A model generated the notes under the pieces. It worked only from the letters and a program-made list of their open reading frames with translations, did no database searches and was not told the origin of the DNA. A program made the position numbers and the translations under genes. From Bilabrum cf. latius (Eukaryota), in assembly GCA_965178125.1 (NCBI GenBank), contig OZ237759.1, positions 558,001-622,000 of the forward strand: a stretch of DNA of 64,000 bases, given 5' to 3'. Shown here in pieces: positions 1 to 64,000 of the stretch. Position 1 is the stretch's first letter; each line of letters starts with the position of its first letter.

Positions 1-2595
1 CGGGTCGTGGTCCAGCGATCCATCGGATGCTCGGTCTTGGCTAACCTGGGCCCCTTCAGCCGATGGTGTCACTGCCTCAGATTTGTCGATGCTCTGATCC
101 GTTGAGCCTTGGGCCGGGGCTGCCTGCTTCTTGTCAAGCGAGTCGATAGCACTGTTATTCCCGCTGTCTCTTGGCGCACTGCTTGGCGCCTGCTCCTACC
201 TCGGTTGCACCTAGCCGGGCGTGCTGCCATCTGCACCCGGTCGATCCCGTCCATCAGCACCGACGGTGTCATCATGATCACTACCTGTCCAATTGGCATC
301 GCCTTCCTCGTCTTGCCAGTGCACGCATGGACAGCAATCGACTCGGCCGGCCATTCTCCTCCGTGAATCGAGCACCAGAGCAGCGCAGAACGCAGTGACC
401 TGTAGCACAAGCACCGCCACCACCGCAACCGCCGAGGTGATGCAGAACTGCCTGATGGCACCAATGTCGATTGCAGTCCCAATGGCGAAGGCGAGGGCAT
501 CAGTGATGGAAGTCAGGGTAACGCTCGGCCCTGCCTCTCTGAGCGTGCGGGCCAGGCGCAAGGCAAGGCGATTGACGAGGGCACGGTCTTTGTCGTCTGC
601 CTCGTCTGACGACTTCGAGTGGCTGTCGCCATTTCGATGCGCTGGCTCAGCCATACCCTTGGGACACACATCCGCTGGGTCTACCTGCCGAATATGCTCT
701 TCTTGCTTGTGCTCTGTGGGCGGTGCCCGCGCCCCATTCACGTCCGTCGCTGGATAGGTGGCATCTGGGAATTGCTGGATCCCGCTCCTGGATCTCGCGA
801 GGCCACGGGACGATTCACCGCTTGCAATTGCAGTTGCACTCTCGGAGTGATGCTACGGACCTTCGCGTCCCCGTGCACGTGACGCTTGCGTCTCATCCTA
901 GCCCCCCTTCTGCTGCTGCTGCTGCTGCTGCTGGGCAAGTTCCTCCTATTCATGAGCAGTGATTCGGTCCCACACAGCGGACAGAAGCAGCCCGTCGTCC
1001 ACGCCGACCGCGACCAAAACGAAAAACGCCAGCTAGCTCATTGTATTGAACGGCACGCCAAAGTATCCGCCAAGCCCAAAACTGATCGCCAGCGACCCGC
1101 CTACGCACCCTAGCACGCACACCATCGCTAGCATCACTCGGGATCGAACCGGCGGGTAGTCTCCCAGCACAAGAGCGACATACACAATCATGAGCCCCAC
1201 CGCAGCACCAACCAGCGGCGTGTCAGCCGCGACCATGCGATCCTACTCATCTTGGAACGTTCTGGACGCGAAGGGAAGCACGTCGATGGAGTCGACGAGC
1301 GCACTGTAGGACCGCGGGGCTACTTGGCTCCAGTCCGCTGCGAATCTCCGCAGTCCACGCGCTGCGTCCTGCCCCAGGATTGCATCCTCTGCTTGGATTG
1401 ACTCGCGGCCGTCTCCACCGCACGAGTCGGGGCCATAGGCAGGGCTGGTCCTGGCTGAGTCTTGGCTGCTGCTGCTGCTGCTGCCGTCAGGCCGGACGGG
1501 CGCCGCGCTCCCGAGGTCCATGTCAGCGGAACCGACCGACTGCGGGCTGCTCCTCCTGAGCACTTTCCTGCCGCATTCCACCGCGTCGTTGACCCTCTGG
1601 ATCCACCTCTCCTCCAGGTCGCGGACGCGGTCTCTGTCAGCCTGCGTGGGCGGTGACTCGAGCTGCAGGAGCAGCTGAGTGGCAGAGGCGCCGCGCAATT
1701 TACCGGTTCCGCTACCCCCTCCACGCTGCGCGCCACCCACCACTGCGTCCACAGGCACCGGCACTCCCTCCGGGGTTCGAAACCCGGAGGAGTCGTGCAC
1801 CGAGTGCCCCGGGGTGAGTGCAAGCCCGCCCGCACCAGCAGCATCCACGCGCCCCAGCAAGTCGGCAGATGCGAGCAGCCCAGCCACGCCGGCGTTGCCA
1901 CTACCGGGCGCACCTGCCTGGCTGCTCCCTGCCGCGGCCCCCATGGCCGCCCCGACTGACACCTCAACACAAGGGCCTCCCGCGTATGCCCTCTGACAGC
2001 GGTCCAGATAGCCCTAGGTGGAGCGGGCGGCGTTCGCCGCGGCTAGCTGCAGTAGCAGGGAAGGTGGGGCCAACGAACCGGAGCCAAGAGCGGCAACGGC
2101 TAGTTCCGGTGTTCCGGAAGCAAGTGCTTCGGCGAGCAAGGTGGATGCACTGTCCGGTAGCTCCACGGCCTGCATGCCCCTGGCCCGGTTGCCTGTGGAA
2201 TTGGAGGCTGCCAGCTGCTCCTGCAGGGCAGCAGCCTGCAGTACATCTTGCTCGGTTGCCCTCGGGATGCTATGAACCATAAATACCTCCGATATGGCAG
2301 TGGACCCAAACGTATCTCGGAGTGCGACTCTGTCTTGCCACGCCTTCGCCTTCTGCGGAATCCAGCTCGCTTCATAGTCAAGCTCCGTGGCGAGCAGCGG
2401 AAGCCCGCCCCCACAGACGGCAATCACGCACAGTGATATAAAAAGCGTTATGTAGGGTGCCCTAGCGACCATGTTTCCAAGGCTGGCATAGAAATCTTCC
2501 AAATGCGGGATGAACAACGCGTATGGCCCAAGCTCCCACCCTTGGGATAGCCAATCACACCATGAGCGCCTTTGATTCGCGCGTTCTATGCTCAT
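1..2595 (-). CDS. Patched/NPC1-like sterol-sensing-domain membrane protein, 3' end beyond the window
   Basis: One frame from ATG 2595 to the window edge joins ORFs 2014-2595, 1243-1962, 1033-1236 and 211-741 through 8 TAG codons and no TAA/TGA. SSD motifs: FNTMS[TAG]LAFFVLVAVGVDD, RLARTLREAGPSVTLTSITDALAFAIG, AIRQFC, LQVTAFCAALVLDSRR. Confidence 0.9.
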
Positions 2596-3016
2596 CTAAC
2601 AATCCTCTTTACTGCTTTGTTAGACACCGATACAATTGGAACACTGACGGAATCCTGTTTTCTAATGTGCGGCGATCCTCCCTTGTGGATGCTGTTGCGG
2701 CTGTTCCAAATACACACGGCTCTCAATCAAGGTGGAAATCAACACAAAATGGACAGGTTGCTGTAAATTAGAGTAAACTGCCAGTGCACCAAATAAATCA
2801 AGTAAGTTCCCAATTGAGGGTGAGAACCAATTGTACATGGAGAGCGCCGCGTCAGAATCCAACATGAGATGATGATAAGACTCGGTTTGAATAGAATGAA
2901 ACATTTTAAGAACTTGAAACGTCCAGTATATAGCCCAGAAGGACGATCTAAACGACCACCAAGGGTTAATTCCAACCCACCGATCCAAAGTACGGATCCC
3001 TGGTGGCCCATCCACC

Positions 3017-3580
3017 TTATTTTTGTGATGCTTCCTTCTTAATACGCTTCAGCTCGGAGTTGAATGATCGGTGCCGTAGTACTGCCAGACCAAAAATGAT
3101 GAACCACGCCGATACACCGCAAATGATAGAGCCCCACCAGGGAAGTCCTAGCTGCGCATTGATCGACATAGCAAGAGGAGCCAGCGCAAGATACCCCAGC
3201 AGATGATAGCATGGCAGAGTAAATATCAGCAGATTTGGCGTCTGCTCCGCGTTGGACCGGTAGATGAACCCATATGCCACCCTGAGAACGAGCCAAAGCG
3301 CCCCAGCATAGAGGGCAGATTGAGGCGACACAAACACTGCGTGCACCCATAGACTCGGAAAAAATACCACCAGCTACTCCACTTGGTTCGTTTGCGCCCG
3401 CTCAGACCTCCTCATGATGGCTGGAACCCCCCTGGGAAAATCCTTGCTCAGTTGCTCCTGGCTCGCATCAGAGTCCACTCCAAGTTGCCGGCGGAATGAA
3501 CCTACGCCCATCACCTCGAACAGCTCGTACCATATGGCTGTAATTCCTGAAAGGGCTGCCACGCCGGCGTACTGTTCCAT
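3017..3580 (-). CDS. MAPEG family membrane protein (microsomal glutathione transferase-like)
   Basis: MEQYAG...RSERAQTNQVE[TAG 3374-3376]LVVFFPSLW...GALWLVLRVAYGFIY. The MAPEG R-x3-N-x2-E motif is followed by TM helices; ends TAA. Confidence 0.88.
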
Positions 3581-5796: not shown

Positions 5797-6016
5797 TTGC
5801 CGGCAAGTGTTGGCCACTGAATGCTAGGTTCCGCTAAAGCGTGTCGCGGCGTGCGCAGCAGCAGATAAACGTATTTCTCACAGAGGCCCCTGCTGCGAGT
5901 CATAAAGCACCAAACTTCAGTCCAGCTGTCATGTCAACCTGCACAGTTGAGCCTGTTTGAGGCTCGCGGAGGTATTTCGTCGTCATCAACGTTCCGGGCG
6001 GCGAATAGTCGTTGAA

Positions 6017-9000
6017 ATGGATTCCGGTAGAATCGGTGTGGCTACGTTTAGGAACACAATTGGTCTTGCGGTCATTGTATCTCTATTTAGTGGCTTCTTG
6101 GTATCAATTGCAAGCGGGTCGGATGTCTTTGCCTTGAATGCTGGGGCGCACGCAGCGTGCCAGGCGGTGGTCCATGCCGCGCAGACTTTGTTGTGGTACC
6201 GGTCGGTTGACGAGCGTGTGTACTCTAACTGGTTCTGGTGGGCATACTTGTTAATGGTCGGTTTATTCCGTGGGATCCTCGCATTCCTAGAGGTTCGGTA
6301 CCTACCTAGCGTGTTTGACGACATTGATAGCATCAGCGCATTCATCTGGAATGCAGAGACTGTGCTGGCAACATTTGCGACAAACGCATTGTAGTTTGCC
6401 GCAGCATTTGTGTTGCCGTGGTACCTATTTGCTCCAGTGAATGCTGCTTGGAATCGTAGACTAGCTTCCTCTGCTAAACAATTGGAGCATGCAGTGGTCG
6501 CTATCCGCCATCAGTATCAGGGCGGGGTCGGTCGCAAGGCCTCCGACACGCAGTCAGTCAACTACCAAAGAGACGAACGGGGAAGCATAGCGGTGGACGA
6601 GAAAAGCGACGCGAAATCCGCGGCTGGCGCACAGAGCCGGGCGAGCGAGCACAACCGCGGCTCGATCAGCCGGGGGAAATCCCGCAGGGAGAAATTCAGG
6701 GACCGCGCGCAGCGCAAGAAACAGCGCCGCATGTCTTCTACGAGCACCGCGGGACGCCGCGTCGGGCTGGGCAACCTGTTCACCCCCATGGGCAGCACGA
6801 CAATCGGGCCTGCCAGTGGGGACGGCCTGCTCACTTCGAGGAGCAGGCCAAGGAGGGGGAGCGCAGCGTCCCTGACATTCGAGGACGGGCATGGCAAAGA
6901 ACCTCCGCCGGGAGACACCAAGGCAGGGCCGGGAGCCCTCAGCGGAGCCTCAGGCAATGGTGGTCGTCGTCGAGGAGCCCGTATGAGCCATGGCTTCGAC
7001 TTCAGTGACAACGCGGTTGAGGCAGGACTCGGCAGTGCAGTGCAGCTGAGCCACCGTAACGACAGCCCTACCGAATCATCCTCGTAGGATCACTCGTCAC
7101 ACCATGACGGGGAACACGACCACCCTCCTGGACCCTCTTCCATGCCCTCATCGTCCCAGTCCCGCGCGGGCACCCGCCAGACAGACGCGGCTGCCACCTC
7201 CTGCTCGGACAGCGCAATGCCCCAGATCCCACAGTCATTGTCGTCGTCACACCACCCCAGCGCCTCCAGATCATCGGCGCTGCAGATGCCAATGACACCG
7301 ATGCAGTCCCCAGGGTACGGACCCACCAGTGGTAGCACCCAGCAGGTCACGGCGGCAGAGACACCCGGAAGCAGCGGGGCTCGGCTGAGATCCGGCTCCG
7401 AGTCATCGGTATCCTCCTCCTCCCGGCATCGATCCCGGTACCACTCCTCCGCGAGCGAATCCTTCGCCTCTCACTAGAGCTCGAGGGGGCTATAGAGGGG
7501 AACATCGGGTCTGTACGAGCAGTCTACCCGTGGGCTGGGAATGGGGCTGGGGCTGCACCACGCTGCCAGCGCGAAGAACCTCCCGCGGGTAGAGCGGGCG
7601 CGACTCGCCGCACTGGATGCGATTCGGAGCGCGTACAGCACCTTGCGAAACGAGGAGCGAAAAAAGAAAATGCAGCGAAGGAAGAGCCGGAGGAATCAGA
7701 GCCGCAGGCACATGGGCCGCGGGGGGCGCCATACTAACCCAAGTGGGATCATCTCAGGCCGGCCGCCCGCCCAATCAGCAGCAGGAAGACGAGGAACAAG
7801 TGGTGGTAGCACCACGTCAAGTCGGGCTGGTGTCGCGGGGCGGACGGGATTCAATCCCGGATCCAGTGGGCACGCAGTGACCTACAGCAGCAACCTCATG
7901 TCACCGCAGGCCTCGCCCGCCATCAGCCCAGCTGCCTCACCAGCGTTCCTGCCGGCACACCACCGAAGCACCAGCGCCACCACGCGAGGCAGGAGCCAAC
8001 CCAGGCACAGAGAAGCTGGGGCAAGGAGGCCCAGTGCCATCAAAACTGGGAGCAGCAGCCGAGCCAGCACCAGAAGCAGCAGGCGGGGCAGCCAATCCAC
8101 AGGACGAGGCAATGATCCAAGCAGCCAAGCGCGCGGTGATCGCCCCAGAGCAGACCATTCTATCCAGAATCGGCATTCCGATGGTCGAACCTTCTCACGC
8201 CGCATTCACTCTCAAACCCAATCGTATACTGCGTTTGGTCAGTCTGCAGACAGCTACGACACGGAAAGCGATTCAGTTGCAACGCAAGGGATGCACGTGC
8301 CCACTCCTGCGCGTCTTGCCGCGCAATCCGACGCAACATCGAACCAAACAGGCTCCAATTCAAGGCCAAGAAATGGTGGCACGAACGGACGAGAGGCTGA
8401 TGGTCGTGCACAAGGACAACCTGCGGATGCGCGAGCCTCACCCGCGCAGTTGGTCGGACCTCAAAACGCACGTGGGTACAGTGGCAAGACGCCGCCTCCT
8501 CCCTAGCACCGGCACCCCCGAGCGCCAGATCGTGATCGGAGGGCACGACTGGCCCCTCCAGATCCGATTAATTTTCCGGAGACACCTTCAATCGATTCGT
8601 TGCGGGTCAGGGCCGGCCCAAACACTGGTAGTCATTCCCACCGTGCAGGCTCCGTAGGCAGCGCCGCCCGTGCGAGCGCAAGGACCCCTGGTAGTGTGGA
8701 GGACCGAGCAGACGGCTCGCAAACAACGAAGCCGGCTGTTCGGATCGTATCGGTCGAAGTGTGCGAGAACGAGTCCGCCGACCCGTGGATGCGCAGTGGA
8801 GACGTGCAGACTGTTGGAATTGATGCTGCAACGGTGCGAGAAGCTGCTGGTGTGATGAACCTTGTCCCTGCTGGCTCTTCACACGACCACGGCGCTGATG
8901 CAGGCAGGCAACTTGTCAGTGACCCGCGTGCTGCTGCCGAGGCCCGGACAGCGACCGGGAACATGAGCCGACCCGTCCTTGATTCCAATCCAGACGACAA

Positions 9001-12000
9001 CCTTCAAGTAGTGGGGGCTGACAGCTCCAATGAAGGTCGATTCGGCCATGTGCAGCCGTTCAGCCAGGAAGATGGAAGAGGTCATTCGGGACAACCAAGG
9101 CCGATTGCGATAGGCAGCAAGGAGTAGCCGAGCGACGGCAGCAGTAGGGACGATATGTTCGGCAGCATGGTGATCGCGGATGAGCTGGGGGTAGATGGGG
9201 GCGTGCACGGAGCAGGGCGAGACGGTCGTGCTGCGGAGAATGAAGACCAGGTAATCGACCTCTCTTCATTGGATGCAGCCCGAGCCCCAGCTCCCAGCTT
9301 GGCTGCTAGAAGGAGCGCTGCGAATGAGTCGCATGAGGAGAGCGGTCCAGGCGCGAAAGAACAGTGCAATCAAAGCAGCAGGGACGAATCCATGCAGCTT
9401 GCTCAGATTGGCAACGAGCCAGTACCACGTGAACTGGATGGCACGGCCGCCCCAGCTATTGCTCGCATTGGTGACGGACGTGAAGCTCCTCTTCTCAGCC
9501 ACTTGTCATCGGGGTCAGATGGCGGTAGCGGGATCGCGGGCAGCAGCCGGGGAAGCGCCACGGGCAGTAGCACGAGCCGTAGCAGAGGCAGCAGAGACGG
9601 ACGAACACAGAGAGCACCGCATCCTCGCGTCGCATCCTCCTCACCGCCCCAGCGGGCCAGGGTTCCTCACCTTGAATAGTAGTATGCCAGGGATAGGGAA
9701 CAGCAGTCGGAAAGAGAGTCCAGCGGGCAGAGCCAGCACCAGCGCCAGCACCAGCATAATTTGTCTCGGCCGCGCGGCGCAAGCGACGGTGTAGTGTTGC
9801 TGCAGTAGCGGGGGCAGCTGCTTGATGGTGATAGGGCTTCACCCAATCCCATGTAGGGGATAGGAGTCGTTGTGCCTGTGCCCGGTGCAGACTCAGGCGT
9901 GGTAAGGCGAACCGCCAGCGATGGAGTCGGCCAGGCGACATCATCTCTTTCCACCACTAGAGCTGCAATTGGCAGCTCCAGAAAAGGTGCACTCCCTGGA
10001 GCCGCGAGGGTGTCGCTTCCTGGACCGCTGAGTCTGGCCGCTGCCACAGCCGCTGCCGCTGGTGGCCGTCATGGCCAGCTCCCGGCCTCGTGTGCACCCG
10101 ATGAATCAGGTGAACCTGGTGCAGGACATGTGGCCCGCCATGGACACTCCACTCAGGCTTAGTCGGACGACATAGTGGGTGCTAAACAGGGCGCTAAGGG
10201 TGCTCTTGGAGGCGATGCCAGCAACCAAACAGGCGGGAATGAAGTTGCTGCCGAATCAAAGCAGAGCGCAGGAGCAGACTCCACATCCAAACGAGCCCCC
10301 GCTGTCACAACCATCCGCGATAATCCGGAGGCTGGGCTCGCCGCCGTCCGGACTGTTTTCTCTGCTCTGGGTCGTCTGGACGAGGGCCATGCAGACGTTC
10401 CAGCCGGCGGACTTCAGGACGCCGACAGACAGCACCCCGTGGAGCCGACCTCTGCTTGGCTGTGGCTGGGCAGCGTGGTGACTCCCAAGGAGGTCATGCT
10501 CGCCAGAGTGTGCATGTTGGTGGAGAACTACAAGCACGAATAGGCCATGTCGTTGGCGCGGAAAGCAGTGCTGAGAAGGGCAGCCACAGTGGCTTCCATC
10601 ATTGGCCACCTTAGTGCCAGGACCAAATCTGCCAGCTCCGTCATGATGCTTGGAGACAGACCAGCGGGCTCAGCGCTGGGTACCACCCGGGTGCATGCCA
10701 GCTCTGCACCTGCGTCCAGTGCGGTGGTTGATGGATCGAACGAAAGCCGTGAGTAGGCTGTGTACGGAATAACGGGAAGCAGCGACAGCGGTGCAGATGG
10801 CTACACGGGCGGCTCGATCACCACTGAGTTTGCAGGAGGAGCAAACGACCTCGGCAGCGGCAGCGGCAGCAGGAGTGGACTGTCGCGCGCTGACAAGCAG
10901 ACGAACCACCAACCTGGAGCCAAGAGAGAAGTGCCGATGCCCGGCATGGGAAGAGCAGGTTCTAGGTCTGCGCGGCTGCAAGGCACCAACCCTTCCTTCT
11001 CGGGCCTCGGCTCGCCGCCCCGCCATCCGCATGGTACCACCGGCAGAGAGCTCCAGCCAAGCCAGGAGCGTGAGCTGAGTAACCATCGCAGCACCAGTGG
11101 TAATCGTGACGCCTCAGCAATTGACATATCTGGGCTTGCTGCGCTCAGCCGGGACGCCCCCGCGACAGGCCATGTGTCTAGAAATGGCCCGAAGGACGAC
11201 CCCGTGGCCCAGCGAGACATGCTTCTAAAGGAGTTCCTACCCGACGGAATGACTCCTGCCAAGCTGCAGCACATGCTCGAGATGAATGCCATCGCGGCGC
11301 GATATAGAGAAGGGATGCAGACGGAGACGGAGTTTGGCAGTGGCGAGGATGTCCCCGTCGGTATGGTGACTCGCGCTGACGTGGCAGCGATAGACGCCAG
11401 GATGGCCAAAGTCGCACATAGCCAGCCGGTCGCCGCTCCGACTGAGGCTGGGTCCTATGGCAGCGTATGGGTCGCCGGCTCTGACATAGATGAGGAAGAT
11501 GGTGGCGATGGGGCGCACATAGCTGGTGAGAACGCTGCAGCCGGCGCAGATGCGCGCCCCGTGGTTCGTGCTGCCTGGGATGCCAGTGTACCCGAAAAGG
11601 CCGGTGCAACCAGTAGGGAAGGCGTTCGTCAGGTGCAAGGTGATCAATCTCAGGCTGACGAGGCCGGCGTGAAGCCGATCTAGAAGGGCGGTTAGGCTGT
11701 GGTCGACGTAGCCGATGCACCGCCACGATCGACTCAAATGTTGACCCGACGCGCGACAAACCCCTCCCGCCGCAGGCTCAGTCGACGCCTCACCGACGCC
11801 TCGTCACGTAGCGTGGGCAGGGCGGAAGAAGCCGAGCTTGTTGCGGTGAGGGAGCAGGTCCTCAAGCTGCTGGAGCCAGGACCAGGAGAGAAATTCCTGG
11901 CGAGGGTTCGCGAAACTCGCATGTGTGTATGCGTCGACGGTTGGTGTGTGGACAGGAGGGTCGCGGCGGAGGCAATCGCGCAGGAGCAGGGGTCCCGTGC

Positions 12001-15000
12001 AGTGTGTTTGGGGGGGAGGGCGCCCTCGTGGTGTGCTTGCTGCTGCTGCTGCACCGACGCCATGCCGTGCTGTGCAAGCTGCCTATCGTGCTGCACCGAG
12101 GACCAATCGATTGGTCTAAGGTACGAGGACGACGAGAGCGAGCCGGAGTCGTGCCCCTGCATCGCACGGTGGTGCGAGTCCGCTTGTATTCGCCGGTCGC
12201 CGATCTGGCCACTCGGGTACATGGGCGCTGTTGCATGGGCGCTGGCCATCGGAATCAGCATCGCGAAGACGGTGCAGCACATCGGTAGCACTGGCTGGAC
12301 CGCGGCACTTGTGCTGTACCTCGTTGTGTTCCCCTCAGCCGTGGTGCTCACAGTGTGGGACAAGCTCAGGAGGGACCTCTCGAGGAGGAGGCTCGACCCC
12401 GGCAGCGTGCTGTTCCTGGTAGCCATCTCGCAGAGCTTCGGACACGTCTCAGCAACCGTTCTGGTGCAGATAGCGCATGTTTCGAGGGGGTAGGCCGTCT
12501 TTGAGATCCCCATGCTGGTGCTGTTCTTCGGTGTGATGCAAGCGGCGGGATTCGCTTGGAAGTACGCCGCGTCTGCTTCCTCGCTGATCGCGTCTGACGC
12601 CAGGTCCCTTCGATTCATGTACGGACTGCTGGCCCGTGTGTTTGTTTCCCTGATTTTCGTGCGATTCGATCCACTCTCCTGGGCTTTCCTGGCCGCATTG
12701 GCCATCAAAGCAAGCAGGATCGTCTTCGTTGAAACCGCGATCTGGCAGTGGATCCTACAGTCAATGGCCGCGTGTGGTGCAACCATCGCGCCTTTACGGC
12801 TCCGGACGGCTTGGGGAACAAGACGGATCAGAGAGGAGGTACGGATGGCGGGAACGCAGGAAAACCTCTCTACCTCAATACTAGTGCTCGTGCTGCTGGG
12901 AGAAGAAATAGCTATTCAGTCCGGATTGCTAGGCGAGCGGTTGCTGACTGAGGCACTGGCGCAGCAGTCGGCTGGTGACACTCTCGTGAGGGCCTGGTTG
13001 GAAGACGCGGGGCTCGCGAGTGGGACTGCTGCCGTCATTCTCTTCGTTGCGGGCATCCTTGCTATCGCGCTTGTCACGTACCTTGCGGTGTACATCGCGT
13101 GGCAGTTCGCTCGAAAGCGTTTCGTGCGGGCCTTCTACCGCCGTGCTCTGTTTGGGCTTCTGATCGTGTACACCTTCGTGACTCTCGGCGAGTTTAGGAT
13201 GATGACGGGCGTTGAAGCTCGCAGATTTGAAAAACGCTGCATGAACGGCAACAGGGCAGCACTGAAAGTCCTCAGCAAGCACCGAAGGAGGGTCACTCGC
13301 GAAGCGAGAGATGCCGGCATCGTCAACAACGGAGACCTGGCGAGCATGATCCTCCAGCAGCTTTCCATGCCCGAGAAGAAGAGCAAGAAGAGCATGAAGG
13401 CTGTCGGTGAGCTCATGATGGACGGAAGTGCTGCGGGTGCTGCGGCATCAGACGGCGAGGCATAGGAAAGCTCCCCGCTGCGAGTGCCTTCTTCGTCCGA
13501 TGGCCCTCATGGCGACATGCCTGGGGTTCTTGCGAGACATCAAGGCAGCTCTCGGGCAAGCGGCGGCTTGCTGCTGCCCAGTTCCGACGAGGCTCTCCTG
13601 CAGACGAAAGAGTCGCAGCCAGGGACCAAGAGCAGCAGGGCCACCGTGACCATCGGACCTGATGGTGTGCCGGTGGACCGGACCGCCGACGGTTTCCTGG
13701 CTGGGGGCACGTACGAGAGCAGCAGCTCCTCTGGTGTCGGTTCCAGCGGCAGCGGGGACAACGAGGACATCGAGAAGCTCATTGTTGCCGGCAGCAGCGC
13801 AGAGAGCCGGGGATCCACCGGTGGGCTGGAGGACCGGGCGCTCGTGGCGCTGGCTAGCACCAGCAGCGGCGTGTTCTTCCGCAGTTCCAGCAAGAGGAAA
13901 GACATGATGGCTACAACGGAGAAGACATCGGATCGGACTTCCAGTGATTACCTCAAGAGCGTGGAAGCCGATTCTAGGCAGGGGAAATCTACGCCCGTCC
14001 ATGCAGATCCTATGACATCCGAGGCACTTGAAGGAAACTCGGCAAGCACCCCAAAGAGCATCTTGAAATCGCGCAAGCGATCACCTTAGAAATCCCGGCT
14101 CTCCAGCGCCAGCGCCAGCACGCAGGGATCTGATGCGCAGAACGGTCTTGGTGTCTCCGTGGCCCTTGCGAATCACATCAGCTCTCGGGTGCAGAAGACA
14201 CACGGAGTGACGCCGGCAGCCTTACTCAATGGCGGCGCCCTGGCCGCCAGCACTGACGATCCGATAATTGATGTTCCCGCGCTCCTATTGAGTCCAAACG
14301 GCACGGAGCAGTCCGCAGATGCCTCTCCATTCGCTGGGCTTGGCGTGGGCGTGCCAGACGACGGCGATGACGTGGGAGTGGAGATCGCCGTGCAGCGGGA
14401 TGTGCGAGACAGAGACGCTGACGACAGCAGCAGCCTCATGATGACGAGTGAGGAGTTCAACCGCAATGCAATGAATCGTCCCGAGCCCCGGGCGAACAGC
14501 AGCTCAACGGATCTATTCGCCAGCATCGACACGGCAGACGAAACAGAAGGCACCGTTGACCTGACTGCCGACCCAACGACCCGCCGCCCGAGCAAGCGCT
14601 CGGGCCAAAACGGCAAGAATAGCAAGAGGCGCTGCCAGAGCCGCAAGCCAAGAGCAAGCCTTGCGCGATCACTGAGTGGCAGCAGCAGTGGAGGCGATGG
14701 TGTCCGGCCATCACGCCGAGGCGTGCATCGCAAAGGCACGGCAGGCCGTGACCCTGCCGAGCTGGACGCCGGCGCTGAGACGAGCGACCCCGGCGTGGGC
14801 CGCGGTACGAGCGCGTCTAGGTCTCGATCTCGCCCAAGAAACACGCAACCAGGGAACAAGCACCCAGGGAACAAGCATTATCATGTCCATGCTCAGCTCT
14901 CGACATCCCGTGGTAGGCCTGGGCCGGCCGGCAGCCGACTTGCCCGCATGCACGGGCGGTCTGGTGCCAAGGAGTACGGCCAAGGTGGGGGGCATAGTCA

Positions 15001-15712
15001 CGACCACAAGACTGGAACCTCAGAAGGACGCGGCCGGTATGTCGCTCAGGTTGGGCGAGCGGCAGCCTCCAGGTCAAGCAGGCTCGGGGGCAGGCCCAAT
15101 GGTGGAGATGCCTCGGGGAGCAAACGAAAGAGCAAAGGCAAGAACAAGAGCAGGGGCAGAGGCATGCACAAAATTGGTAGCATGGGTGGCTAGAAACGGA
15201 GCATGGGCGGTCAACGAAGGAGCGGCATGCTGCAGCGCACCATGGGGAGCAGCTGGCGAGACCCTAGCCAAAGGTGGGACTTGAAGCTAGACCTCATCAT
15301 GCCAATGCTGCCCGATGTGCCAGACACTACGGCCGGTGCTGCTGCCAGTGCCAGTGGAGGCCTTCGTGATCGCGCACCTGCACCTGCACCTGCACCTGGG
15401 CAGCCCACCGGTGGACCGACAGCCCCATCGGACCGTCTTCCAGCTCGCAGCGAGGGGTGGAGCTCCCACAGCGGGAATGAGAGCACCCGTTCTGGATTAG
15501 CAGAGAACGTCCGTCTCACGATGCACTGGAGGAAAGACGCCAAGAAGGTGGCGAGCAGGGCCAGGGAGCAGACGCTCCTCTCCATCAAGAATGGCAGGGC
15601 GTGGTCGTTCGCGCAGTGGGACACGTGGGTGTATGTAGCTGCCGTGGTCTTCGTCGGGGTTCTATTTTCCTACGAATTTAAATCCGCGACGCTGCAGCAG
15701 GGCGTGGTTTGA
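6017..15712 (+). CDS. Very large (~3230 aa) hypothetical multi-pass membrane protein with long Ser/Gly/Arg low-complexity regions
   Basis: Fifteen supplied ORFs (5957 to 15203) share one frame and are separated only by TAG (19 counted), with no TAA/TGA until 15710-15712. Hydrophobic clusters near 6050-6430, 12210-13190 and 15620-15670. Confidence 0.82.
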
Positions 15713-15918
15713 TTGAGCATGGGCGCCGTCGCCAAGGTGCGCTACCGTGCAATGAGCCCCAACGGCGACAGAAATTTGCTTGTGCTCTTCTGCAGAAAGC
15801 GACCCATTGCATCTGCACGGATTGCATTGATGTGTAGCATATGAATACAATAGTAGTACGTGTACTCTAAATGCTCTAATTGTCCACGGTTGTACTGAGA
15901 ACACCGGGTACCAGGCGG

Positions 15919-26317: not shown

Positions 26318-26457
26318 TTGACCGCGAGCCTGGTGTAAACACCTAAATCTTGTGCGGTTTCAAGGGCGACAGTTTGATTGTAGAAAGAGAGTCCATGAAT
26401 GATTGTCTCCATTCTGTATACTCTTTTTTGTAGACGCCGTTGTAGTCACACAGTGTT

Positions 26458-26528: not shown

Positions 26529-26538
26529 TTTTTATTTT
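26529..26538 (+). terminator. RNA polymerase III oligo-T terminator
   Basis: TTTTTATTTT immediately after the tRNA 3' end. Confidence 0.75.
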
Positions 26539-48236: not shown

Positions 48237-49454
48237 ATGAGCTCTCTTGGAGTAAAAGGCTACACGGGCCATAGACCAGCTGCTGCTGGCGATACATATT
48301 CTTATGAACCTGGGACGTCGCTGGATGGAAGAGAGAAGCGATACATGCAGCTATTTCACACAATAAAGAGGCGTAGCGCACTTGGCGGTGAAATTGACGA
48401 CAGAAGATCGGTACAGCAGACCTCAACAGCTGGCATGAAGCCACAGGATTTCTTATAGGATGAAACGTCGAGGATGGTGTGAGGAGCTGCCGATTACACG
48501 CATGGATTCCGTTCTGGAAGTTTGTTGTGGACGTGGGCCATGACAACTTCGTCGCTTTCGTTCGCGTCTTTGTTTCAATATCGCAGTCCGTACGCCACAG
48601 AAGTAGCCAGACGAATGCCTGTAGAGAAGCCCCTGGTGACAGGGTCTACATATGGCGCCAGCTTTCCCGATTTCTAGAAAGAAGCCAAAGCAGTCGCCGA
48701 CATGTCTGACGATGACTTTGAGCGAGCATTCAGGGAAGTTGACATTGACGGTTCTGGCGCACTCGACAAGGGTGAGCTGAGCCTTTTGCTCAGGCATTTG
48801 CTCGGGAGGGAACCCACGGACCTTTAGGTCAAGGCACTGCAGCAGCTCTCCGATTCCAATCGCGATGGGCGCGTTACGTGGCCGGAGCTCAAAGACGCGC
48901 TCCCCACCATTCGGGATAGAATCGTGAGGACCGCCAAGGTCACCTACGGGAAAGCGGGCCAGCCCACTCTGCGCCTGCCCATGGCGCCAGAGGTGGTGGC
49001 GGGGGGCCCCATGGTGAGCGCGGCGGGGATCGACGTGGGGCCCCTTGGCCGGGTGCCTGCCCGCATGCCGCTTCGGGATCCGAAGACAGGGGGGATGGCT
49101 AGCACCACCACCGACCTGGCCGAGGGAACAAGCAAGGGTACTCGTCACATCCCTGGGTACGCTGGGTACATCGCGGCGAACGCGGGCAAATCCGCGGCTG
49201 GGAGCCATAGCTTCGGCGCCTCTGCTCGGGACACCTTCCACTCGAAGAACAACATGGGGGAGGCGCACACAGTCAGGATGAAGGGATACACGGGGTACAT
49301 GCCCAAGGGGCACGCCATTCCGGCGGATGTGGATAAGCCCCGGGGACAGTTCGCCGCGACGGACACGGCGGCAGCGGATTCGCTCGTGGAAGCCTACTGG
49401 GCAGCTAGGGCCAAGGTTGCTGCGTCCAAGGCGGCTGCCGGGGGCGGGTCTTGA
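48237..49454 (+). CDS. EF-hand protein with GY(T/A)G(H/Y) motifs, probable axonemal microtubule inner protein; exons 48237-48478, 48587-49454
   Basis: EF loops DIDGSGALDKGE and DSNRDGRVTWPE; GYTGHRP, HIPGYAGYI, KGYTGYMP. Intron 48479-48586; TAG at 48456, 48675 and 48825; ends TGA. Confidence 0.75.
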
Positions 49455-50196: not shown

Positions 50197-52599
50197 TCAA
50201 ACAGGCACCACGACCGTCTCCGTGGCCCCAAACGCCCCCACCTAGACAGTGACAGTTCCTTCCGTCTCCGATAGAATCGAAGCACTTGCTCCGGGCTCGT
50301 TGCTCATACCGCCGGACCCACCGTCCAGCCACGGCAGTAGCAGCCACGCCGCCGTGCAGTTGGCCACAGAGCCCTGACCACCAGCCCCCAAGGCAGCAGT
50401 TGCTCCGCCGCTGCTGCTGCTGCCGCTGCTGCTACTGCTGCTTGGTCCCAAGCACGATCCGTCGTACCTGGTCGCCTGCGATTCCTGCACGTTGTCGTAC
50501 TCCTTAGAGTACCACCCCTGCAGTTCCGGTTTCTGCTGGCCCTGGATCAGCGTGGCGTTGGACCAGGCGATCCAGGATGACCCTGTCGCAACCGATGATG
50601 TGTGATGAGTGCTGACGGCGGGCACGACCACCATGTGCGCCGTCGTGTCCTGCTGCGTGTCGATCCGGAGCATCGGGGCCGAGGAACCCGAGGAACTTTC
50701 GCTGGAATGGGTCTGGGGCTGCAGGGCGGCGGTGTTGTTTGGATGGGTGTGCCACAGGGCGCTCAGCGTTCTGCTCCGATCCGAGCTGATCCGATCCACC
50801 ACCACCCAGTAGGGCCGGCCCAGCGACCCCCCGGAGCGGCTGAACCACAGGGCGCGGGTGTGCACCGCAGTGCCCTGCACCCCATCGTACCCGATGCTGC
50901 CCCGGGCCCAGTCGTGGTCTGCCTCGATCGCCCACTCGCTTCCCGGGATCGGGGAGGTTGCAACCGCCGGTCCCTTCTGCTCGTCCTGGTCGTCCACCCG
51001 GATCGTGTTGTGCGCCCGAGTGAGAACGGCGTACTGAGACCTCCAGCGGCTTAGATTGCCAGTGTAGGCAAACCTCCCAGAGTCGGTCAGCATGTGCAGG
51101 CCAAAGGGCCGCACGCTCACGTGAAGCTTGTCGTTGTGGCCGTGGCTTGAGGAGCCGAAAGGCCCCACGTCGAAGAAGGACCACACGTCTGACGTCACTG
51201 CCCTCGGGCCTGACGTCACGCCAACAACATTTGCTGGTGATGAGTGCGACCTGCTTGTTGGGGCGGTCAAACTGGCGGGCCCCGCCTCCCCCCAGCCACT
51301 CCTGGAGATGAACTGCCCAGCCCAGGGGAACATGGCAGAGGGCTGCCCCGGGGGCTTGGTGCCTTTTGTTCCCCGCGATGCGATGTACTGCCAGTCGGGG
51401 CGATTGAATCTAGATGCTTCTCCCTGATCATAGACGTCGCTGCCGAAGAATTCCTCGTTGTTGTCTCCGTTCATCGGCGCCATGCCGGTGAAATCGATTG
51501 CGTACGCCGTGTAGTTGACCATGGATTCCGCCACCTGCTTAAGCGCCAGCACGGAAGCATCCTTCCCTCTTCCCGCGTACGAAGCGGTCTCGAGCAGTCC
51601 CAGGAAGTTCTCTGTTGCCACCCAGTGGTAGGAGGAGGTCTCCTCCGACTCCACTCCGTCCGGATACACGCCCGTCTTGGCATCCGCCACGACACCTTCG
51701 AAGGCCTTCTGCAGCCACTCCTCGGCGCCATTCAGCTCCGGCCACAGCATGGCCAGGTTTGCCAGCCCGTGGTATTGCATGGACCTCCAGTTGGGATTTC
51801 CATCTCCGCAGAACTGCCCCAGGAAGCTGCCGTGCTCGCCTACCGAGGCAACCATGGCCACCGGCCAGGAGTCGTCTCGCCACGGCGCGGGGCTCGGCGC
51901 CTTCCTTCCGTGCTTGCTGTCTCCATCTTGCGTCGATTCGTACGAATCGATCATGCCGTAGAAGGCCGTGGGCCAGGTGCCGTCCAGGCGGATCCCGGCT
52001 TCGAGCGAGCGCCATGTCGTGCCGTCCGGGTGCGACGGAGCGGGATTGTGCGCGACCCAATCGGCGCTCAGGTTGGAAAACATGTTGTAGTAGATGATGT
52101 TTCCGGTAGAGTTCCACGCCTGGGCAAGGGATGCCCAAGCGCTGTGGCGGGAGAGGGCGTACATGTACTCGACATCGTCGTTCGGGCCTTTGAAGTCCCA
52201 ATTGAGGCCTCCATCGGCGTCTCTGGGCACCGTGGCAGTAACCGTATAGAAGTCGTATGTGTCTACCAGAGCCATGTCGGCGGCGCCGCCTGCTCGGCCA
52301 GTACCAGGAGAAGGCTTCGGAAATCGCAGCCACCACCCGTTCCGACTGGCCTTGTAGTAGTCGATCAGGGCACGACACGCCCCGGGCGCATCCCCACCCG
52401 CCCACGCCTTCTAAACAGGAATGAGAGCAGGCGAGTACGAATAGTTCAGCTGCTTGTCGAACAGGTTCTGGACGACGGTTGCATCTGGAGGACAGGGCGA
52501 TCCTGGGTCAGAGGAACCGAAAGGAGCCGCGCCGGTCCCTCGGGTGACTGCTAGATACGCCATAAAAGCTGTTGCAATGTCTGTAAGCTAGACTCGCAT
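50197..52599 (-). CDS. Secreted heparinase II/III-family polysaccharide lyase, intronless, 800 aa
   Basis: TWRSLEAGIRL, NPNWRSMQ, VYPDGVESEETSSYH, FDVGPFGSSSHGHNDKLH, LTDSGRFAY, TRAHNTIRVD, YWVVVDRI. Signal-like N-terminus; 3 TAG codons; ends TGA. Confidence 0.87.
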
Positions 52600-52706
52600 T
52601 GTCCTGATACAATGGTCAGCTCGTGTGTCGAATTTCGCGGGTGCAGTTGCCGTTGGCTCCGGAGCAGTGCCATTCAAGTTCAGTGACGGCGTTGCAAAAG
52701 TACAAG

Positions 52707-54704
52707 ATGCCTGGCACAGTAGAGTTTCTGATAGTCTCTAGTGTGCTCGCAGCGTGTCACTCCAGCGGGCAGGAGCTGCCTTACTTGCGCGTGTTCTATT
52801 CGGCAGAAGACACCGATAATGCAGTGCTCGGAGCCACCGCGATGCCACCGAGCCCAACCTACAAGCTTGCTCACAACGGAACCTCCATAAGTACTGTTGC
52901 GAAGACTCGTCCAAGCGATCTCTTGCCCGATGACTGCAAGTACGCCCAGCTGTTTCGTTTCTACAACAGCAGGGATCGCACTGATACGATCACGACGAGC
53001 AGTCAGAAGGGCATTCTATACGCAAAGGTAGCTGGATACACCAAACAATCCCTTGAAGGCTGGGTAATCCACTGCCTGAGAAACAGCTCGACCGGAGATT
53101 CGGCCCCTGGCTCCGCTGTCGCTGTCGGTGCCCGCCTCACGCAGTACTGGAGCGCCGCTCGGATCGACCATTTCCTGGTGTCCACGCCCGAGGGCAGGCG
53201 CGATGCGATCGCAAGCGGATACATTGAAATTAAGTCGTGGGATGAGGGCTACGGCGCCGCTTCGTGGACCACCTTTCCGGACGGGCCAGTGCCCGACGGC
53301 TGCCCCTTTGCTCGCTCCACTGCGGTGCCGGGGATCCAGTTCCTCTACGGAGTGTACGGCTCGTACGGCGGGGCAGATACTTGGTTTCCATCCTGGGGAG
53401 CCGACGGAGATCTGTACACGGGCTTCACGGATGGTGTCGTGAACGGCATCAAGTCGGCGTCGTACAAGGGAGCCAATGCAACGACTGGCATGGCCATCGT
53501 TTCGGGCGATGACCCGCTCCAGCTGGACGTGCACAACGTGACCATATACCAAGAGAGCGCGCTTCCGTACCAGGGCAGATATCCCAGCGCCAACTTGTTC
53601 CTCAACGGCACCTGGTACTACGGAACATACGCACTCATCAACTACAAGGCGGGGCGAGACCCTGCCCCCGACTGCGGCAACTGGTGCGTGCAGGGCCCCT
53701 TCGTGGGGTTCCGGTATAGCAAGGACCGGGGTCGGTCCTGGATCGCGCCCCGGAAGGAAATGAAGGGACCGAACGACACCCTCTTCGGGGAGGTAGCGCC
53801 GTCTGTGAATCCACCGGTGGATTTCGTGAGGTTCGGGGCGCCGCATGTGGTGGACTGCGGGCAGGAGCTGGAGCACTGCTCCCTTGAAAATGCCGAGGAA
53901 AAAAACATAAGGTACTCCTCTGCAGATGATTTGGCTGCCACCGACCAGGGAACAAGAGGCGCTGCCACCCAGGGAGTAGGGGGCAGTGACGGGGGCAAGT
54001 TCGTCTACCTGATCGGTCACGGGGCCACGGGGCCTGGGCAGCACGAGAGCTGGATGCAGGGGAGTGCAGTGCACCTGGCCAGGTTCGACGCATCTCTGCT
54101 TGCGACCAACTCGAGCGCCATCAATGATGGTCGCAACTGGGAGTTTTTCGCCGGGCGGCAGCCCGGCAGCGCCGGGGCCCCCGTCTGGGTGCGCGGCGCC
54201 GTCGACAAGGCGGAACCTATATTCACCTGGCCTAACCGCACGGGCGTTGTGACAGCGACGTACGCCCCGGTGCTGAAGCGGTTCCTCATCTTCGTGTCCA
54301 CGCCGAGGGTGTCCCCCTACACGAACCAAAACTTCGACACGTACGTGCTGGAGAGCCCGCGCCTGACCGGCGGCAATCCCGGGACCGATACCGAGTACAG
54401 GCTGGTGACCTACATGCAGAATTTCGGCACGGAGGCGTATTTTGTGAACCTTCCGAGCAAGTTCGTTGGCACAGGCCTGAATGATGGTGGTGCATCGGAT
54501 GCTCCCTCCACCGGAGCAAGTGCTTTGGGTGGGCGAGCGCAGGGTAGTGGAACCCTCGATGCGTGGCTGTCGTATTCCGCTAATTTTGCGAGCGGTGTGG
54601 CGGTTCCGCCTGGATCTGGGTATCACTGGAGCCTGCAGAAGATGCGGTTCTTGGTCGGTCGTGAAAGTACCCGCTCTCGCCTTTTTGGCGGCATGCAAGC
54701 GTAA
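52707..54704 (+). CDS. Secreted beta-propeller glycoside-hydrolase-like protein (DUF4185-like) with N-terminal accessory repeat, intronless
   Basis: Signal peptide; LFRFYN...D / LTQYWS..RIDHF repeat; ADTWFPSWGADGDLYTGFTDG, PYQGRYPS, FVGFRYSKDRGRSW, EAYFVNLPSKF; ends TAA. Confidence 0.7.
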   Translation: MPGTVEFLIVSSVLAACHSSGQELPYLRVFYSAEDTDNAVLGATAMPPSPTYKLAHNGTSISTVAKTRPSDLLPDDCKYAQLFRFYNSRDRTDTITTSSQKGILYAKVAGYTKQSLEGWVIHCLRNSSTGDSAPGSAVAVGARLTQYWSAARIDHFLVSTPEGRRDAIASGYIEIKSWDEGYGAASWTTFPDGPVPDGCPFARSTAVPGIQFLYGVYGSYGGADTWFPSWGADGDLYTGFTDGVVNGIKSASYKGANATTGMAIVSGDDPLQLDVHNVTIYQESALPYQGRYPSANLFLNGTWYYGTYALINYKAGRDPAPDCGNWCVQGPFVGFRYSKDRGRSWIAPRKEMKGPNDTLFGEVAPSVNPPVDFVRFGAPHVVDCGQELEHCSLENAEEKNIRYSSADDLAATDQGTRGAATQGVGGSDGGKFVYLIGHGATGPGQHESWMQGSAVHLARFDASLLATNSSAINDGRNWEFFAGRQPGSAGAPVWVRGAVDKAEPIFTWPNRTGVVTATYAPVLKRFLIFVSTPRVSPYTNQNFDTYVLESPRLTGGNPGTDTEYRLVTYMQNFGTEAYFVNLPSKFVGTGLNDGGASDAPSTGASALGGRAQGSGTLDAWLSYSANFASGVAVPPGSGYHWSLQKMRFLVGRESTRSRLFGGMQA

Positions 54705-60411: not shown

Positions 60412-60432
60412 TGGGGATATTGTTCGGCGGAG

Positions 60433-62730: not shown

Positions 62731-63039
62731 AAGGCGACCAACCGCACTCTGCTGGGGCGGTGTCTACCTGCCTGGTCGCTCGTTGGCCTGATTGGCTTCG
62801 CTTTGGCTGTTGACAGCCTACGCACGCTCATGCGTGCAAAATGATCGTACTACACTGCAAAACATATTTTGTGCTGCACGGGATTCTATTCTGTCATGGC
62901 AAGCACACACGGTCCTCGCATATACCCACCACACCAAAGGCTTCCCGCAACCACCCCCAGCAACAGCGCCAGCACCACTAGAGGCAATGAGCGCACGGAA
63001 GCACCGCAGCCAAGAGCAGCCAGTTTGCAATATCCATGC

Positions 63040-64000
63040 TCACTCCTCCTTCTTGAGCTGAGCGCGGCCACGGATCCGACCAGTGCGGCGGGCACCGATG
63101 AGACCGGCCTTCTGTCCGGCGGGGGCGTCCTTCTTGGCCGTGGTGGCGTGACCAACGTGCTGATGGTTACCACCACCGAAGGGATGCTCCACGGGGTTCA
63201 TGGCCACACCACGTACCTTGGGCCACTCGTTGCGCTTCACGCGGTACTTGTGGTACGCGCGCCCTGCCTTGAGCATGGGCTTGTCCATGCGGCCGCCGCC
63301 GCCGACGATGCCGACCATGGCGCGGCACGTGGACAGGAGGGTCTTCTTGAGGCCCGAGGGGAGACGGATCTTGGTCTTGCCGGTCTCCTCGTTGTGCTGC
63401 ACAACGGTGGCGTAGTCGCCGGAGCAGCGAGCGAGCTTTCCGCGGTCACCGGTCCTGGACTCGATGTTGCAGATGATGGTACCCTCGGGCATGGAAGCCA
63501 GGGGAAGCACGTTTCCTACCGAAAGAGTGGCTGCGGTTACAAAGTAGCAACAAATTGAAGTATATGGTGGTTGGTGAGCAACAAAGTCAGCGATGGTGAG
63601 GAGACGTGGCAGCGGAAGGTGCAGCACTGCAGGCAGCCGTTGCTCTAGAGTTTCCAGCAGCAAGCGCTCCACTGGGAACGCTACCGCAGTAGAATTGTAG
63701 ACAGTAATCTACGATATGTTCTCACCCTTCTTGCCGAAGTAGACATACTGGCCGGCGTACATACCCTCAGCGGCAACCATCAACTCCTTGTCCTTCTTGG
63801 CGTGGTAAGGGCTACGGAAGACGATGCGCGCCATGGGTGCGCCGCGCCCAGGGTCGTGGATGATGTCCTTGACAACACCTCGCACGTACCCGGATCCCTC
63901 GGAATAGTCGAGCTTCCTGAGCTTGGAGGCACCCTTATGCAAGCGCACATGGGCCCTGAACACGGACCCTCGGCCCTTACGCTGGGTTCTGATCTGCTTT
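63040..64000 (-). CDS. RPL8: 60S ribosomal protein L8 (uL2), first codons beyond the window; intron 63531-63725
   Basis: [54 protein letters not shown]; intron GTGAGA...CGCAG; ends TGA. Confidence 0.97.

What the first reader, a model, noticed from the sequence alone, without database searches (positions are those of the whole stretch)
1..64000. TAA remains a stop: UAA and UAG are uncoupled
Seen: of 20 gene ends resolved, 16 are TGA, 4 are TAA (MAPEG 3017, GT2 21396, kinesin 33101, 54702) and none are TAG. No TAA appears inside any reconstructed frame. Known: in most eukaryotic variants (ciliate-type code) UAA and UAG are reassigned together. Inference: eRF1 here recognises UAA/UGA but not UAG, and a dedicated CUA-anticodon tRNA decodes UAG.
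Basis: partly seen in the sequence, partly recalled or inferred. Interest (0 to 1): 0.85.

Follow-up and report, generated by a model that had tools for sequence, protein, structure and literature searches.

The report
UAG read as glutamine, UAA stops
This GC-rich eukaryotic DNA reads the stop codon TAG as an amino acid, most likely glutamine, while TAA and TGA still end genes; this rare genetic-code variant has been described before in a few other organisms.

Summary
The window is eukaryotic nuclear DNA (kinesin, SET, Patched-type SSD, RPL8; spliced GT..AG introns). Long frames open only when TAG is read: 109 in-frame TAG in 16,561 codons of 18 frames, with no internal TAA or TGA. Ten frames bounded by TGA on both sides hold 58 TAG and 0 TAA (10-22 expected if TAA were a synonym). 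Contigs of two runs that carry spliced forms show the TAGs unchanged, so editing is unlikely.

TAG most likely encodes glutamine. In a 68-member homologue family, 5 of 19 distinct fragment-end positions fall on the only 8 Gln-majority columns of 684 (P=5e-7). A metagenome relative has an 862-codon frame with 11 TAG, one on a conserved Gln column, and ends at TAA. A few sites point elsewhere (Ser in paralogues, Leu/Ile/Val at one site).

This is the NCBI table 15-type code, published for Iotanema spirale and some ciliates. UAG/UAA uncoupling has been in print since 2017. Stop usage and composition differ from those organisms, so this is probably a new lineage. The tRNA(CUA) and eRF1 inference could not be tested because no genome is held.

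The parts
3017..3019 (-). TAA terminator of the MAPEG gene (frame 3017-3829, 2 in-frame TAG)
   Evidence: two more in-frame TAA within the next 55 codons
21396..21398 (-). TAA terminator of the GT2 glycosyltransferase gene (frame 21396-23489, 3 TAG)
   Evidence: coding log-odds 0.19 before, -0.16 after
33101..33103 (-). TAA terminator of the kinesin gene (main exon 33101-39935, 27 TAG; 5' exons 40027-40222 and from 40335)
54702..54704 (+). TAA terminator of a DUF4185-like gene (52608-54704, no TAG)
5951..15712 (+). 3253-codon frame bounded by TGA on both sides, 19 in-frame TAG, 0 TAA
40762..45525 (-). 1587-codon membrane-protein gene, 19 in-frame TAG, bounded by TGA; member of the family used to infer TAG=Gln
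15880..19158 (+). SET-domain gene, 6 TAG (one inside the SET domain), ends TGA
1..2619 (-). Patched/NPC1-type sterol-sensing-domain gene (runs off the window), 9 TAG, two inside the domain
29999..32671 (+). amino-acid permease gene, 5 TAG, ends TGA; covered end to end by contigs of runs X5 and X8 without letter changes
23711..26328 (-). three-exon gene at the highest depth in runs X5 and X8 (introns 25110-25267 and 26094-26221), 3 TAG, ends TGA at 23812
39936..40026 (-). kinesin intron (GT..AG on the minus strand), skipped in a contig of run X5; a second intron lies at 40223-40334
48483..49454 (+). EF-hand protein gene, 2 TAG (one in the EF-hand pair), ends TGA
50197..52989 (-). heparinase II/III-like gene, 4 TAG, ends TGA
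26457..26529 (+). tRNA-Asp (GTC), the only tRNA in the window; not the UAG decoder

Best explanation
The organism uses a nuclear code in which UAG alone has changed from stop to sense, most likely to glutamine. UAA and UGA remain the terminators. This matches NCBI table 15. Shown here: TAG is translated through in expressed, spliced genes; TAA and TGA never occur inside frames and do close them. Inferred from homologues: TAG stands for Gln. Inferred from established knowledge only, not tested: UAG is read by a tRNA with anticodon CUA, which cannot pair with UAA, probably a tRNA-Gln(CUG) derivative, and eRF1 has lost or weakened UAG recognition while keeping UAA and UGA.
For: TAG is sense. Frames of 3253, 2352, 1587 and 1092 aa open only when TAG is read; the longest frame is 742 aa under the standard code and 746 aa with TAA=Q. 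These frames carry kinesin, SET, SSD, permease, MAPEG, GT2 and heparinase domains. Runs X5 and X8 hold spliced contigs (four GT..AG introns absent from run X1). 22 of 40 in-frame TAG in 21000-40999 lie in the listed X5 contigs and 8 of 40 in the X8 contigs; the only two letter differences listed (27888, 34695) lie outside the six gene frames whose TAGs were counted.

TAA and TGA are stops. There are 0 internal TAA or TGA in 16,561 codons, and 17 ends are 13 TGA and 4 TAA. TGA-bounded frames hold 58 TAG and 0 TAA, P=1.6e-10 to 4e-5. Coding signal falls after three of the four TAA ends.

TAG is Gln. All 68 homologues of the 40762-45525 protein are short fragments. Two of them break exactly at the window's TAG 1058 and 1205. 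5 of 19 distinct fragment-end positions fall on the 8 Gln-majority columns of 684, P=5e-7, against 0 on 11 Ser, 25 Leu, 27 Arg or 12 Trp columns. The window has CAG at all five. Window TAG574 aligns with Q in 2 of the 3 closest hits, and TAG200 with Q in 2 of 2. Metagenome locus L001 (54% identity) has an 862-codon frame with 11 TAG and no TGA or TAA until a closing TAA. Its TAG576 lies on a Q column (5 of 6, plus the window's Q), and it has CAG where the window has TAG918. Pfam score swaps over 6 sites in 5 domains total Q 342.8, K 342.6, E 340.2, S 339.3, Y 336.3, L 332.4, W 332.1 bits.
Against: Window TAG918 sits in a family motif where the more distant homologues (26-41% identical) have hydrophobic residues: in the MAFFT alignment 6 have L, 2 I, 2 V and 1 A; in the BLAST star alignment L6, I2, V1. 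In the B-lectin paralogues TAG pairs with TCG, TCA (both Ser), CAG (Gln) and TGG (Trp); two of those copies look degenerate. In a locally near-identical segment of P0018, TAG328 aligns with V. The stops that end the homologue fragments are not seen as DNA, except in L001, so that they are TAG is an inference. Lys scores as well as Gln in the Pfam swaps. The sample is one 64-kb window: 17 ends cannot exclude rare TAG termination or rare TAA read-through. No tRNA(CUA) or eRF1 was seen.
Confidence: 0.8

Rival explanations
1. TAG is sense but encodes serine, as in the green alga Scotinosphaera, through a tRNA-Ser(CUA).
For: In the B-lectin paralogues TAG pairs with TCG and with TCA. An internal repeat of the same gene has S opposite a TAG (my reading). 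Ser scores only 3.5 bits below Gln in the Pfam swaps. This code is published (Li 2021, PMC8271138, passages read).
Against: 0 of 19 homologue end positions fall on the 11 Ser-majority columns, against 5 on the 8 Gln columns. The closest homologues and L001 place Q or CAG opposite window TAGs. No TGTAA signal follows 9 of the 14 gene ends checked; in the other 5 it lies 34 to 551 nt downstream. That TGTAA is the chlorophyte poly(A) signal is recalled, not tested.
Confidence: 0.07
2. TAG encodes leucine, as in the rhizarian exLh and some phyllopharyngean ciliates.
For: Window TAG918 lies on a column with L, I or V in distant homologues.
Against: Leu is 10.4 bits below Gln in the Pfam swaps. 0 of 19 end positions fall on the 25 Leu-majority columns. 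The residues flanking TAG fit the neighbourhood of polar residues better than that of hydrophobic ones (a weak test). L001 has CAG at site 918.
Confidence: 0.03
3. Both TAG and TAA are reassigned (ciliate-type code 6) and TAA is merely rare in GC-rich DNA.
For: TAA is the rarest of the three triplets (401 on both strands, against 968 TAG and 1665 TGA).
Against: 10-22 in-frame TAA are expected in TGA-bounded frames and none is seen. The off-frames of the same stretches hold 47 and 65. Reading TAA as sense lengthens no frame. The only in-frame TAAs sit at frame ends, and coding signal falls after three of the four.
Confidence: 0.03
4. TAG has a context-dependent double meaning: sense inside genes and stop at some gene ends, as in Condylostoma or the karyorelict ciliates.
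For: Seventeen ends are too few to exclude it. Three frames have a TAG within 30 codons of their end.
Against: No gene needs TAG as its end. About three frames with a late TAG is what a uniform TAG rate gives (my arithmetic). The late TAG of the SET gene lies inside the conserved domain.
Confidence: 0.06
5. The in-frame TAGs are artefacts: pseudogenes, assembly errors or RNA editing.
For: None found.
Against: 109 TAG but 0 TGA or TAA lie inside the frames. The same letters stand in four runs from four studies, two of them carrying spliced forms. A metagenome relative shows the same pattern.
Confidence: 0.01

Closest known systems
Iotanema spirale (Fornicata) nuclear code: UAG=Gln, UAA and UGA stops (Panek et al. 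2017, PMC5304391; passages read)
   Same: Same code table. UAG is never a terminator and no in-frame UAA or UGA occurs.
   Different: Iotanema ends genes with UAA 104 times and UGA 15 times; this window has 4 and 13 (Fisher P=1e-7). The window is 60% GC. So this is very probably a different organism, but lineage was not established.
Ciliates with UAG-only reassignment (Protocruzia tuzeti and some Phyllopharyngea, UAG=Gln; other Phyllopharyngea, UAG=Leu) (McGowan et al. 2024, PMC11687900; passages read)
   Same: UAG is reassigned alone and UAA is kept as a stop. The paper explains that a CUA anticodon does not read UAA.
   Different: The window has 60% GC, introns of 91-158 nt and a 64-kb multi-gene stretch. 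That ciliate genomes are AT-rich with very short introns is recalled, not tested.
Scotinosphaera sp. NIES-154 (green alga): TAG=Ser, TAA and TGA stops (Li et al. 2021, PMC8271138; passages read)
   Same: UAG-only reassignment in a non-ciliate, with TAA and TGA as stops.
   Different: The amino acid there is Ser; here the family evidence favours Gln, with two Ser pairings in paralogues as a minority signal.
Rhizaria sp. exLh: UAG=Leu, UAA and UGA stops (Panek et al. 2017)
   Same: UAG-only reassignment.
   Different: Leu is poorly supported here. Stop usage is 56 UAA to 15 UGA there and 4 to 13 here (P=3e-5).
NCBI translation table 15, also used by crAss-like and Lak phages (PMC9523058; search listing only)
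   Same: Formally the same table: TAG=Gln, TAA and TGA stops.
   Different: Those are phage genomes translated in bacteria. This is a eukaryotic nuclear genome with spliceosomal introns.

Membership tests
UAG-only stop-to-sense nuclear code (UAA and UGA kept as stops) | In-frame UAG inside genuine, expressed coding sequences | tested here: met
   109 TAG in 18 frames that carry Pfam domains. 22 of 40 lie in contigs of a run that carries spliced forms, with no letter change there.
UAG-only stop-to-sense nuclear code (UAA and UGA kept as stops) | UAA never in frame and used as a terminator | tested here: met
   0 internal TAA in 16,561 codons; 4 of 17 ends are TAA. TGA-bounded frames hold 58 TAG and 0 TAA, P=1.6e-10 to 4e-5. 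One window only.
UAG-only stop-to-sense nuclear code (UAA and UGA kept as stops) | UGA never in frame and used as a terminator | tested here: met
   0 internal TGA; 13 of 17 ends are TGA. Reading TGA=W gives many frames, but with 10-22 TGA each on both strands, which is noise.
UAG-only stop-to-sense nuclear code (UAA and UGA kept as stops) | UAG not used as a terminator | tested here: inconclusive
   0 of 17 ends are TAG, and there is no excess of TAG near frame ends. The sample is too small to exclude rare use.
Table 15-type code (UAG=Gln) | UAG sits at positions that are Gln in homologues | tested here: met
   5 of 19 fragment-end positions fall on 8 Gln-majority columns of 684, P=5e-7. Window TAG574, TAG200 and TAG918 face Q or CAG in close homologues. 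L001 TAG576 lies on a Q column. Counter-examples: site 918 in distant homologues and the Ser pairings in paralogues.
Table 15-type code (UAG=Gln) | A tRNA with anticodon CUA and Gln identity; no tRNA with anticodon UUA | not testable with these tools
   The window has only tRNA-Asp, L001 has none, and no genome is held.
Table 15-type code (UAG=Gln) | eRF1 N-domain change that weakens UAG recognition (for example GTS to GGS in Iotanema; PMC9161772, passage read) | not testable with these tools
   No eRF1 gene in the window and no genome held.
Ciliate-type code 6 (UAA and UAG both Gln) | In-frame UAA in coding sequences | tested here: not met
   0 seen where 10-22 are expected.
Scotinosphaera-type code (UAG=Ser) | UAG at conserved Ser positions | tested here: not met
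   0 of 19 end positions fall on the 11 Ser-majority columns. Two Ser pairings in paralogues are a minority signal.
Rhizarian exLh-type code (UAG=Leu) | UAG at conserved Leu positions | tested here: not met
   0 of 19 end positions fall on the 25 Leu-majority columns. Leu is 10.4 bits below Gln in the Pfam swaps. One site (918) fits Leu.

The most novel reading that the evidence does not exclude
This is a eukaryotic lineage not yet reported for this trait, neither ciliate nor Iotanema. It would have evolved UAG=Gln independently, with UAA and UGA kept as stops, in a GC-rich, intron-poor genome where UGA is the main terminator. The change would be shared by at least one environmental relative only 54% identical in protein, so it would be a clade-level trait rather than one strain's oddity.
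Probability: 0.45. Interest if true: 0.6.

Novelty: new member of a known kind. Interest (0 to 1): 0.45.

Why it matters
Nuclear codes in which UAG and UAA have different meanings are few. The papers read here name one rhizarian, Iotanema, Scotinosphaera, Protocruzia and some phyllopharyngean ciliates. A further, GC-rich, UGA-terminating case with genome and RNA data would give another independent test of two questions: how eRF1 can drop UAG while keeping UAA, and whether a single tRNA(CUA) is enough. In practice, any annotation of this genome under the standard code will break genes at TAG. The homologues in the public protein collections are exactly such fragments. Table 15 should be used.

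Tried and rejected
So genome-wide codon counts, the tRNA set and eRF1 could not be checked.
- The look-up of sequencing runs: no RNA holder listed. Two runs turned out to hold spliced contigs when laid.
- The search for homologous proteins with the 1587-aa protein and the SSD protein: no hit. Length limits and low-complexity words are the likely cause.
- First metagenome scan: nothing found.
- Residues flanking TAG, as a likelihood: ranks H, Q, G and S within 1.5 log units, so it does not discriminate.
- Local-composition regression: ranked Gln first. My control showed the method names the true amino acid for only 5 of 24 codons of similar abundance (CAA ranked 10th, CAG 18th). I do not use it.
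- Pfam score swaps: the differences are small (at most 10 bits over 6 sites) and Lys ties with Gln. Weak support only.
- PDB alignments put single TAG sites opposite I and Q (SSD), Y (MAPEG), K and N (heparinase), and E and Q (EF-hand). All are variable positions.
- Lineage could not be placed. No TGTAA signal lies within 600 nt after 9 of the 14 gene ends checked; the other 5 have it 34 to 551 nt downstream. Atlas taxa were uninformative. RPL8 against PDB ribosomes gave near-equal scores for very different entries, and the top hit 11he_L8 scores high only because that chain repeats its C-terminal part. Rfam finds only the tRNA.
- Literature: searches listed no other non-ciliate eukaryote with UAG=Gln only apart from Iotanema.
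Full report
WHAT THE WINDOW IS. The window is 64 kb at 55-64% GC. Pfam finds eukaryotic nuclear genes on both strands. They include a Patched/NPC1-type sterol-sensing domain, MAPEG, GNAT, SET, VIT1 and GT2. They also include an amino-acid permease, kinesin, an EF-hand protein, a PEN-2 exon, heparinase II/III, a B-lectin protein and RPL8 with an intron. The only RNA gene is tRNA-Asp(GTC) at 26457-26529.

TAG IS READ AS SENSE. Under the standard code the longest stop-to-stop frame is 742 aa. With TAG read, frames of 3253, 2352, 1587 and 1092 aa appear, holding 19, 28, 19 and 6 TAG. Reading TAA instead lengthens nothing (longest 746 aa). Reading TGA gives only noisy frames on both strands. In 18 candidate frames (16,561 codons) there are 109 TAG, no internal TAA and no internal TGA. 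The two off-frames of the same DNA hold 47 and 65 TAA, 140 and 118 TAG, 270 and 291 TGA.

I laid four public runs on 21000-40999. Runs X5 and X8 hold contigs that skip four intervals with GT..AG ends on the minus strand: 25110-25267, 26094-26221, 39936-40026 and 40223-40334. Run X1 does not skip them, so these are spliced transcripts. 22 of the 40 in-frame TAG in that stretch lie in the listed X5 contigs and 8 of 40 in the X8 contigs. Only two letter differences were listed (27888, 34695), and both lie outside the six gene frames whose TAGs were counted. RNA editing and assembly error are therefore unlikely. The tool listed only part of the contigs (246 more were not shown).

TAA AND TGA ARE STOPS. 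I could support 17 gene ends: 13 TGA, 4 TAA, 0 TAG.

Frames delimited by TAA would make the absence of internal TAA circular. I therefore used the ten frames bounded by TGA on both sides. They hold 9,414 codons, 58 TAG and 0 TAA. If TAA were a synonym of TAG, used as CAA is relative to CAG (187/481), 22.5 are expected (P=1.6e-10). At the TTA/TTG ratio (29/166), 10.1 are expected (P=4e-5). Two of these frames include intron sequence and one is a doubtful gene.

After the TAA ends the next in-frame TGA lies 39-86 codons on, with further TAAs in between for two genes. Mean codon log-odds fall to the non-coding level after three of the four; the MAPEG tail does not fall. A TAG within the last 30 codons occurs in 3 of 15 frames, about what a uniform rate gives, so there is no sign of hidden TAG stops.

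WHICH AMINO ACID. Few TAGs lie in conserved domains.
- PDB alignments give I and Q (SSD), Y (MAPEG), K and N (heparinase), E and Q (EF-hand).
- Swapping the residue at TAG and rescoring five Pfam domains (six sites) totals Q 342.8, K 342.6, E 340.2, S 339.3, Y 336.3, L 332.4 and W 332.1 bits. This is weak.
- A local-composition regression favoured Gln but failed my control, and I discard it.
- In the three B-lectin copies TAG pairs with TCG, TCA, CAG and TGG.

The decisive evidence came from the 40762-45525 protein. An exhaustive HMMER search with its first 1200 residues found 66 homologues, all short fragments of 61-546 aa. A word search for shorter proteins added two. That is what gene callers using a standard code would produce from genes holding in-frame TAG.
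- Two fragments break exactly at the window's TAG 1058 and 1205.
- Across the 68 aligned hits, 684 columns have at least 8 residues. Only 8 of these are Gln-majority, yet 5 of the 19 distinct fragment-end positions fall on them (338, 607, 789, 857, 903). The hypergeometric P is 5e-7. None falls on the 11 Ser, 25 Leu, 27 Arg or 12 Trp majority columns, which argues against random nonsense mutations. The window has CAG at all five positions.
- Window TAG574 faces Q in two of the three closest hits, and TAG200 faces Q in 2 of 2.

A second metagenome scan with a close alignment gave locus L001 (3582 nt, 55% GC, 54% identity). Its frame +1 is open for 862 codons from the contig start. It holds 11 TAG and no TGA or TAA, and it closes at TAA. 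Its TAG576 lies on a column that is Q in 5 of 6 hits and in the window. TAG267 and TAG363 lie on columns where Q is the commonest or joint-commonest residue. It has CAG where the window has TAG918.

Against Gln: site 918 is hydrophobic in the more distant homologues (26-41% identical). In the MAFFT alignment six have L, two I, two V and one A. Site 328 is V in a locally near-identical hit. The two Ser pairings in paralogues also stand. I put Gln at about 0.8.

HOW IT MOST LIKELY WORKS. Shown: UAG is translated, and UAA and UGA terminate. Inferred from the family data: UAG is Gln. Inferred from established knowledge only: a tRNA with anticodon CUA pairs with UAG but not UAA, because of a C:A mismatch at the wobble position. 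A tRNA-Gln(CUA) is one base away from tRNA-Gln(CUG). eRF1 would have to lose or weaken UAG recognition. In Iotanema the GTS motif is GGS, and in the rhizarian exLh only an L69A-type change was seen (PMC5304391, passages; PMC9161772, passage). None of this can be checked without the genome.

COMPARISON WITH WHAT IS KNOWN. UAG-only reassignment with UAA kept as a stop has been published for:
- Rhizaria sp. exLh (Leu) and Iotanema spirale (Gln) (PMC5304391);
- Scotinosphaera (Ser) (PMC8271138, passages);
- Protocruzia and several phyllopharyngean ciliates (Gln or Leu) (PMC11687900, passages).

The table itself is NCBI 15. The window's stop usage (4 TAA, 13 TGA) differs from Iotanema (104 UAA, 15 UGA; P=1e-7) and from exLh (56 to 15; P=3e-5). 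Its GC content and 91-158-nt introns do not fit what I recall of ciliates. I could not place the lineage. Five literature searches listed no other non-ciliate UAG=Gln-only eukaryote apart from Iotanema. Supplements were closed and might hold one.

VERDICT. The phenomenon is a known kind, and this is probably a new member of it, with an environmental relative that shares the trait. Interest is moderate.

Noticed in passing
window 54648-55987, 60420-61780 and 59621-60296: Segmental duplication. About 1.3 kb is repeated directly at 87-93% identity and is inverted relative to the 3' half of the B-lectin gene (58717-60411). The two minus-strand copies carry TGA or TAA stops upstream of the conserved part and look degenerate.
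   Followed up: partly
window 52608-54704: A 698-codon frame with no TAG at all and GC3 of 0.72. The protein atlas places it nearest to bacterial DUF4185-like clusters (scores 0.90-0.91). It may be a recently acquired bacterial-type gene. It ends in TAA.
   Followed up: partly
window 21000-40999: The laid contigs agree with the window in runs filed under four organism labels in four studies; only two single-contig letter differences were listed. The organism may be a contaminant, a symbiont or variously labelled. I did not try to identify it.
   Followed up: no
window 26457-26529: The tRNA-Asp(GTC) gene sits on a short contig at about twice the depth of its flanks in run X1 (35.6 against about 16), and a second contig shares part of it. 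The gene is probably multi-copy.
   Followed up: no
window 40762-45525; proteins P0001-P0068; locus L001: A sizeable family of Cys-rich membrane proteins with no Pfam domain. In public collections it is seen only as fragments, and one metagenome relative was found. Its function is unknown.
   Followed up: partly
window giant frame 5951-15712, SET gene 15880-19158, and 40762-45525: Three TAG-TAG doublets, each directly preceded by a Glu codon (contexts LEXXY, AEXXG, HEXXW). Glu is the most enriched residue next to TAG (1.79-fold). Unexplained.
   Followed up: no
window 63040-63999: The RPL8 intron is in frame with its flanking exons and is open except for one TAG. A table-15 translation would read straight through it and give a false insertion.
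   Followed up: partly
window 48483-49454: The EF-hand protein's C-terminal half carries repeated IPGY(A/T)GY-like motifs. They recall ciliary inner-microtubule proteins (recalled, not tested), which hints at a flagellated organism. The PDB search returned only EF-hand proteins.
   Followed up: partly
window, the 600 nt after each of 14 gene ends: No TGTAA motif follows 9 of the 14 ends; the other 5 have it 34 to 551 nt downstream. TGTAA is the chlorophyte poly(A) signal as I recall it.
   Followed up: partly
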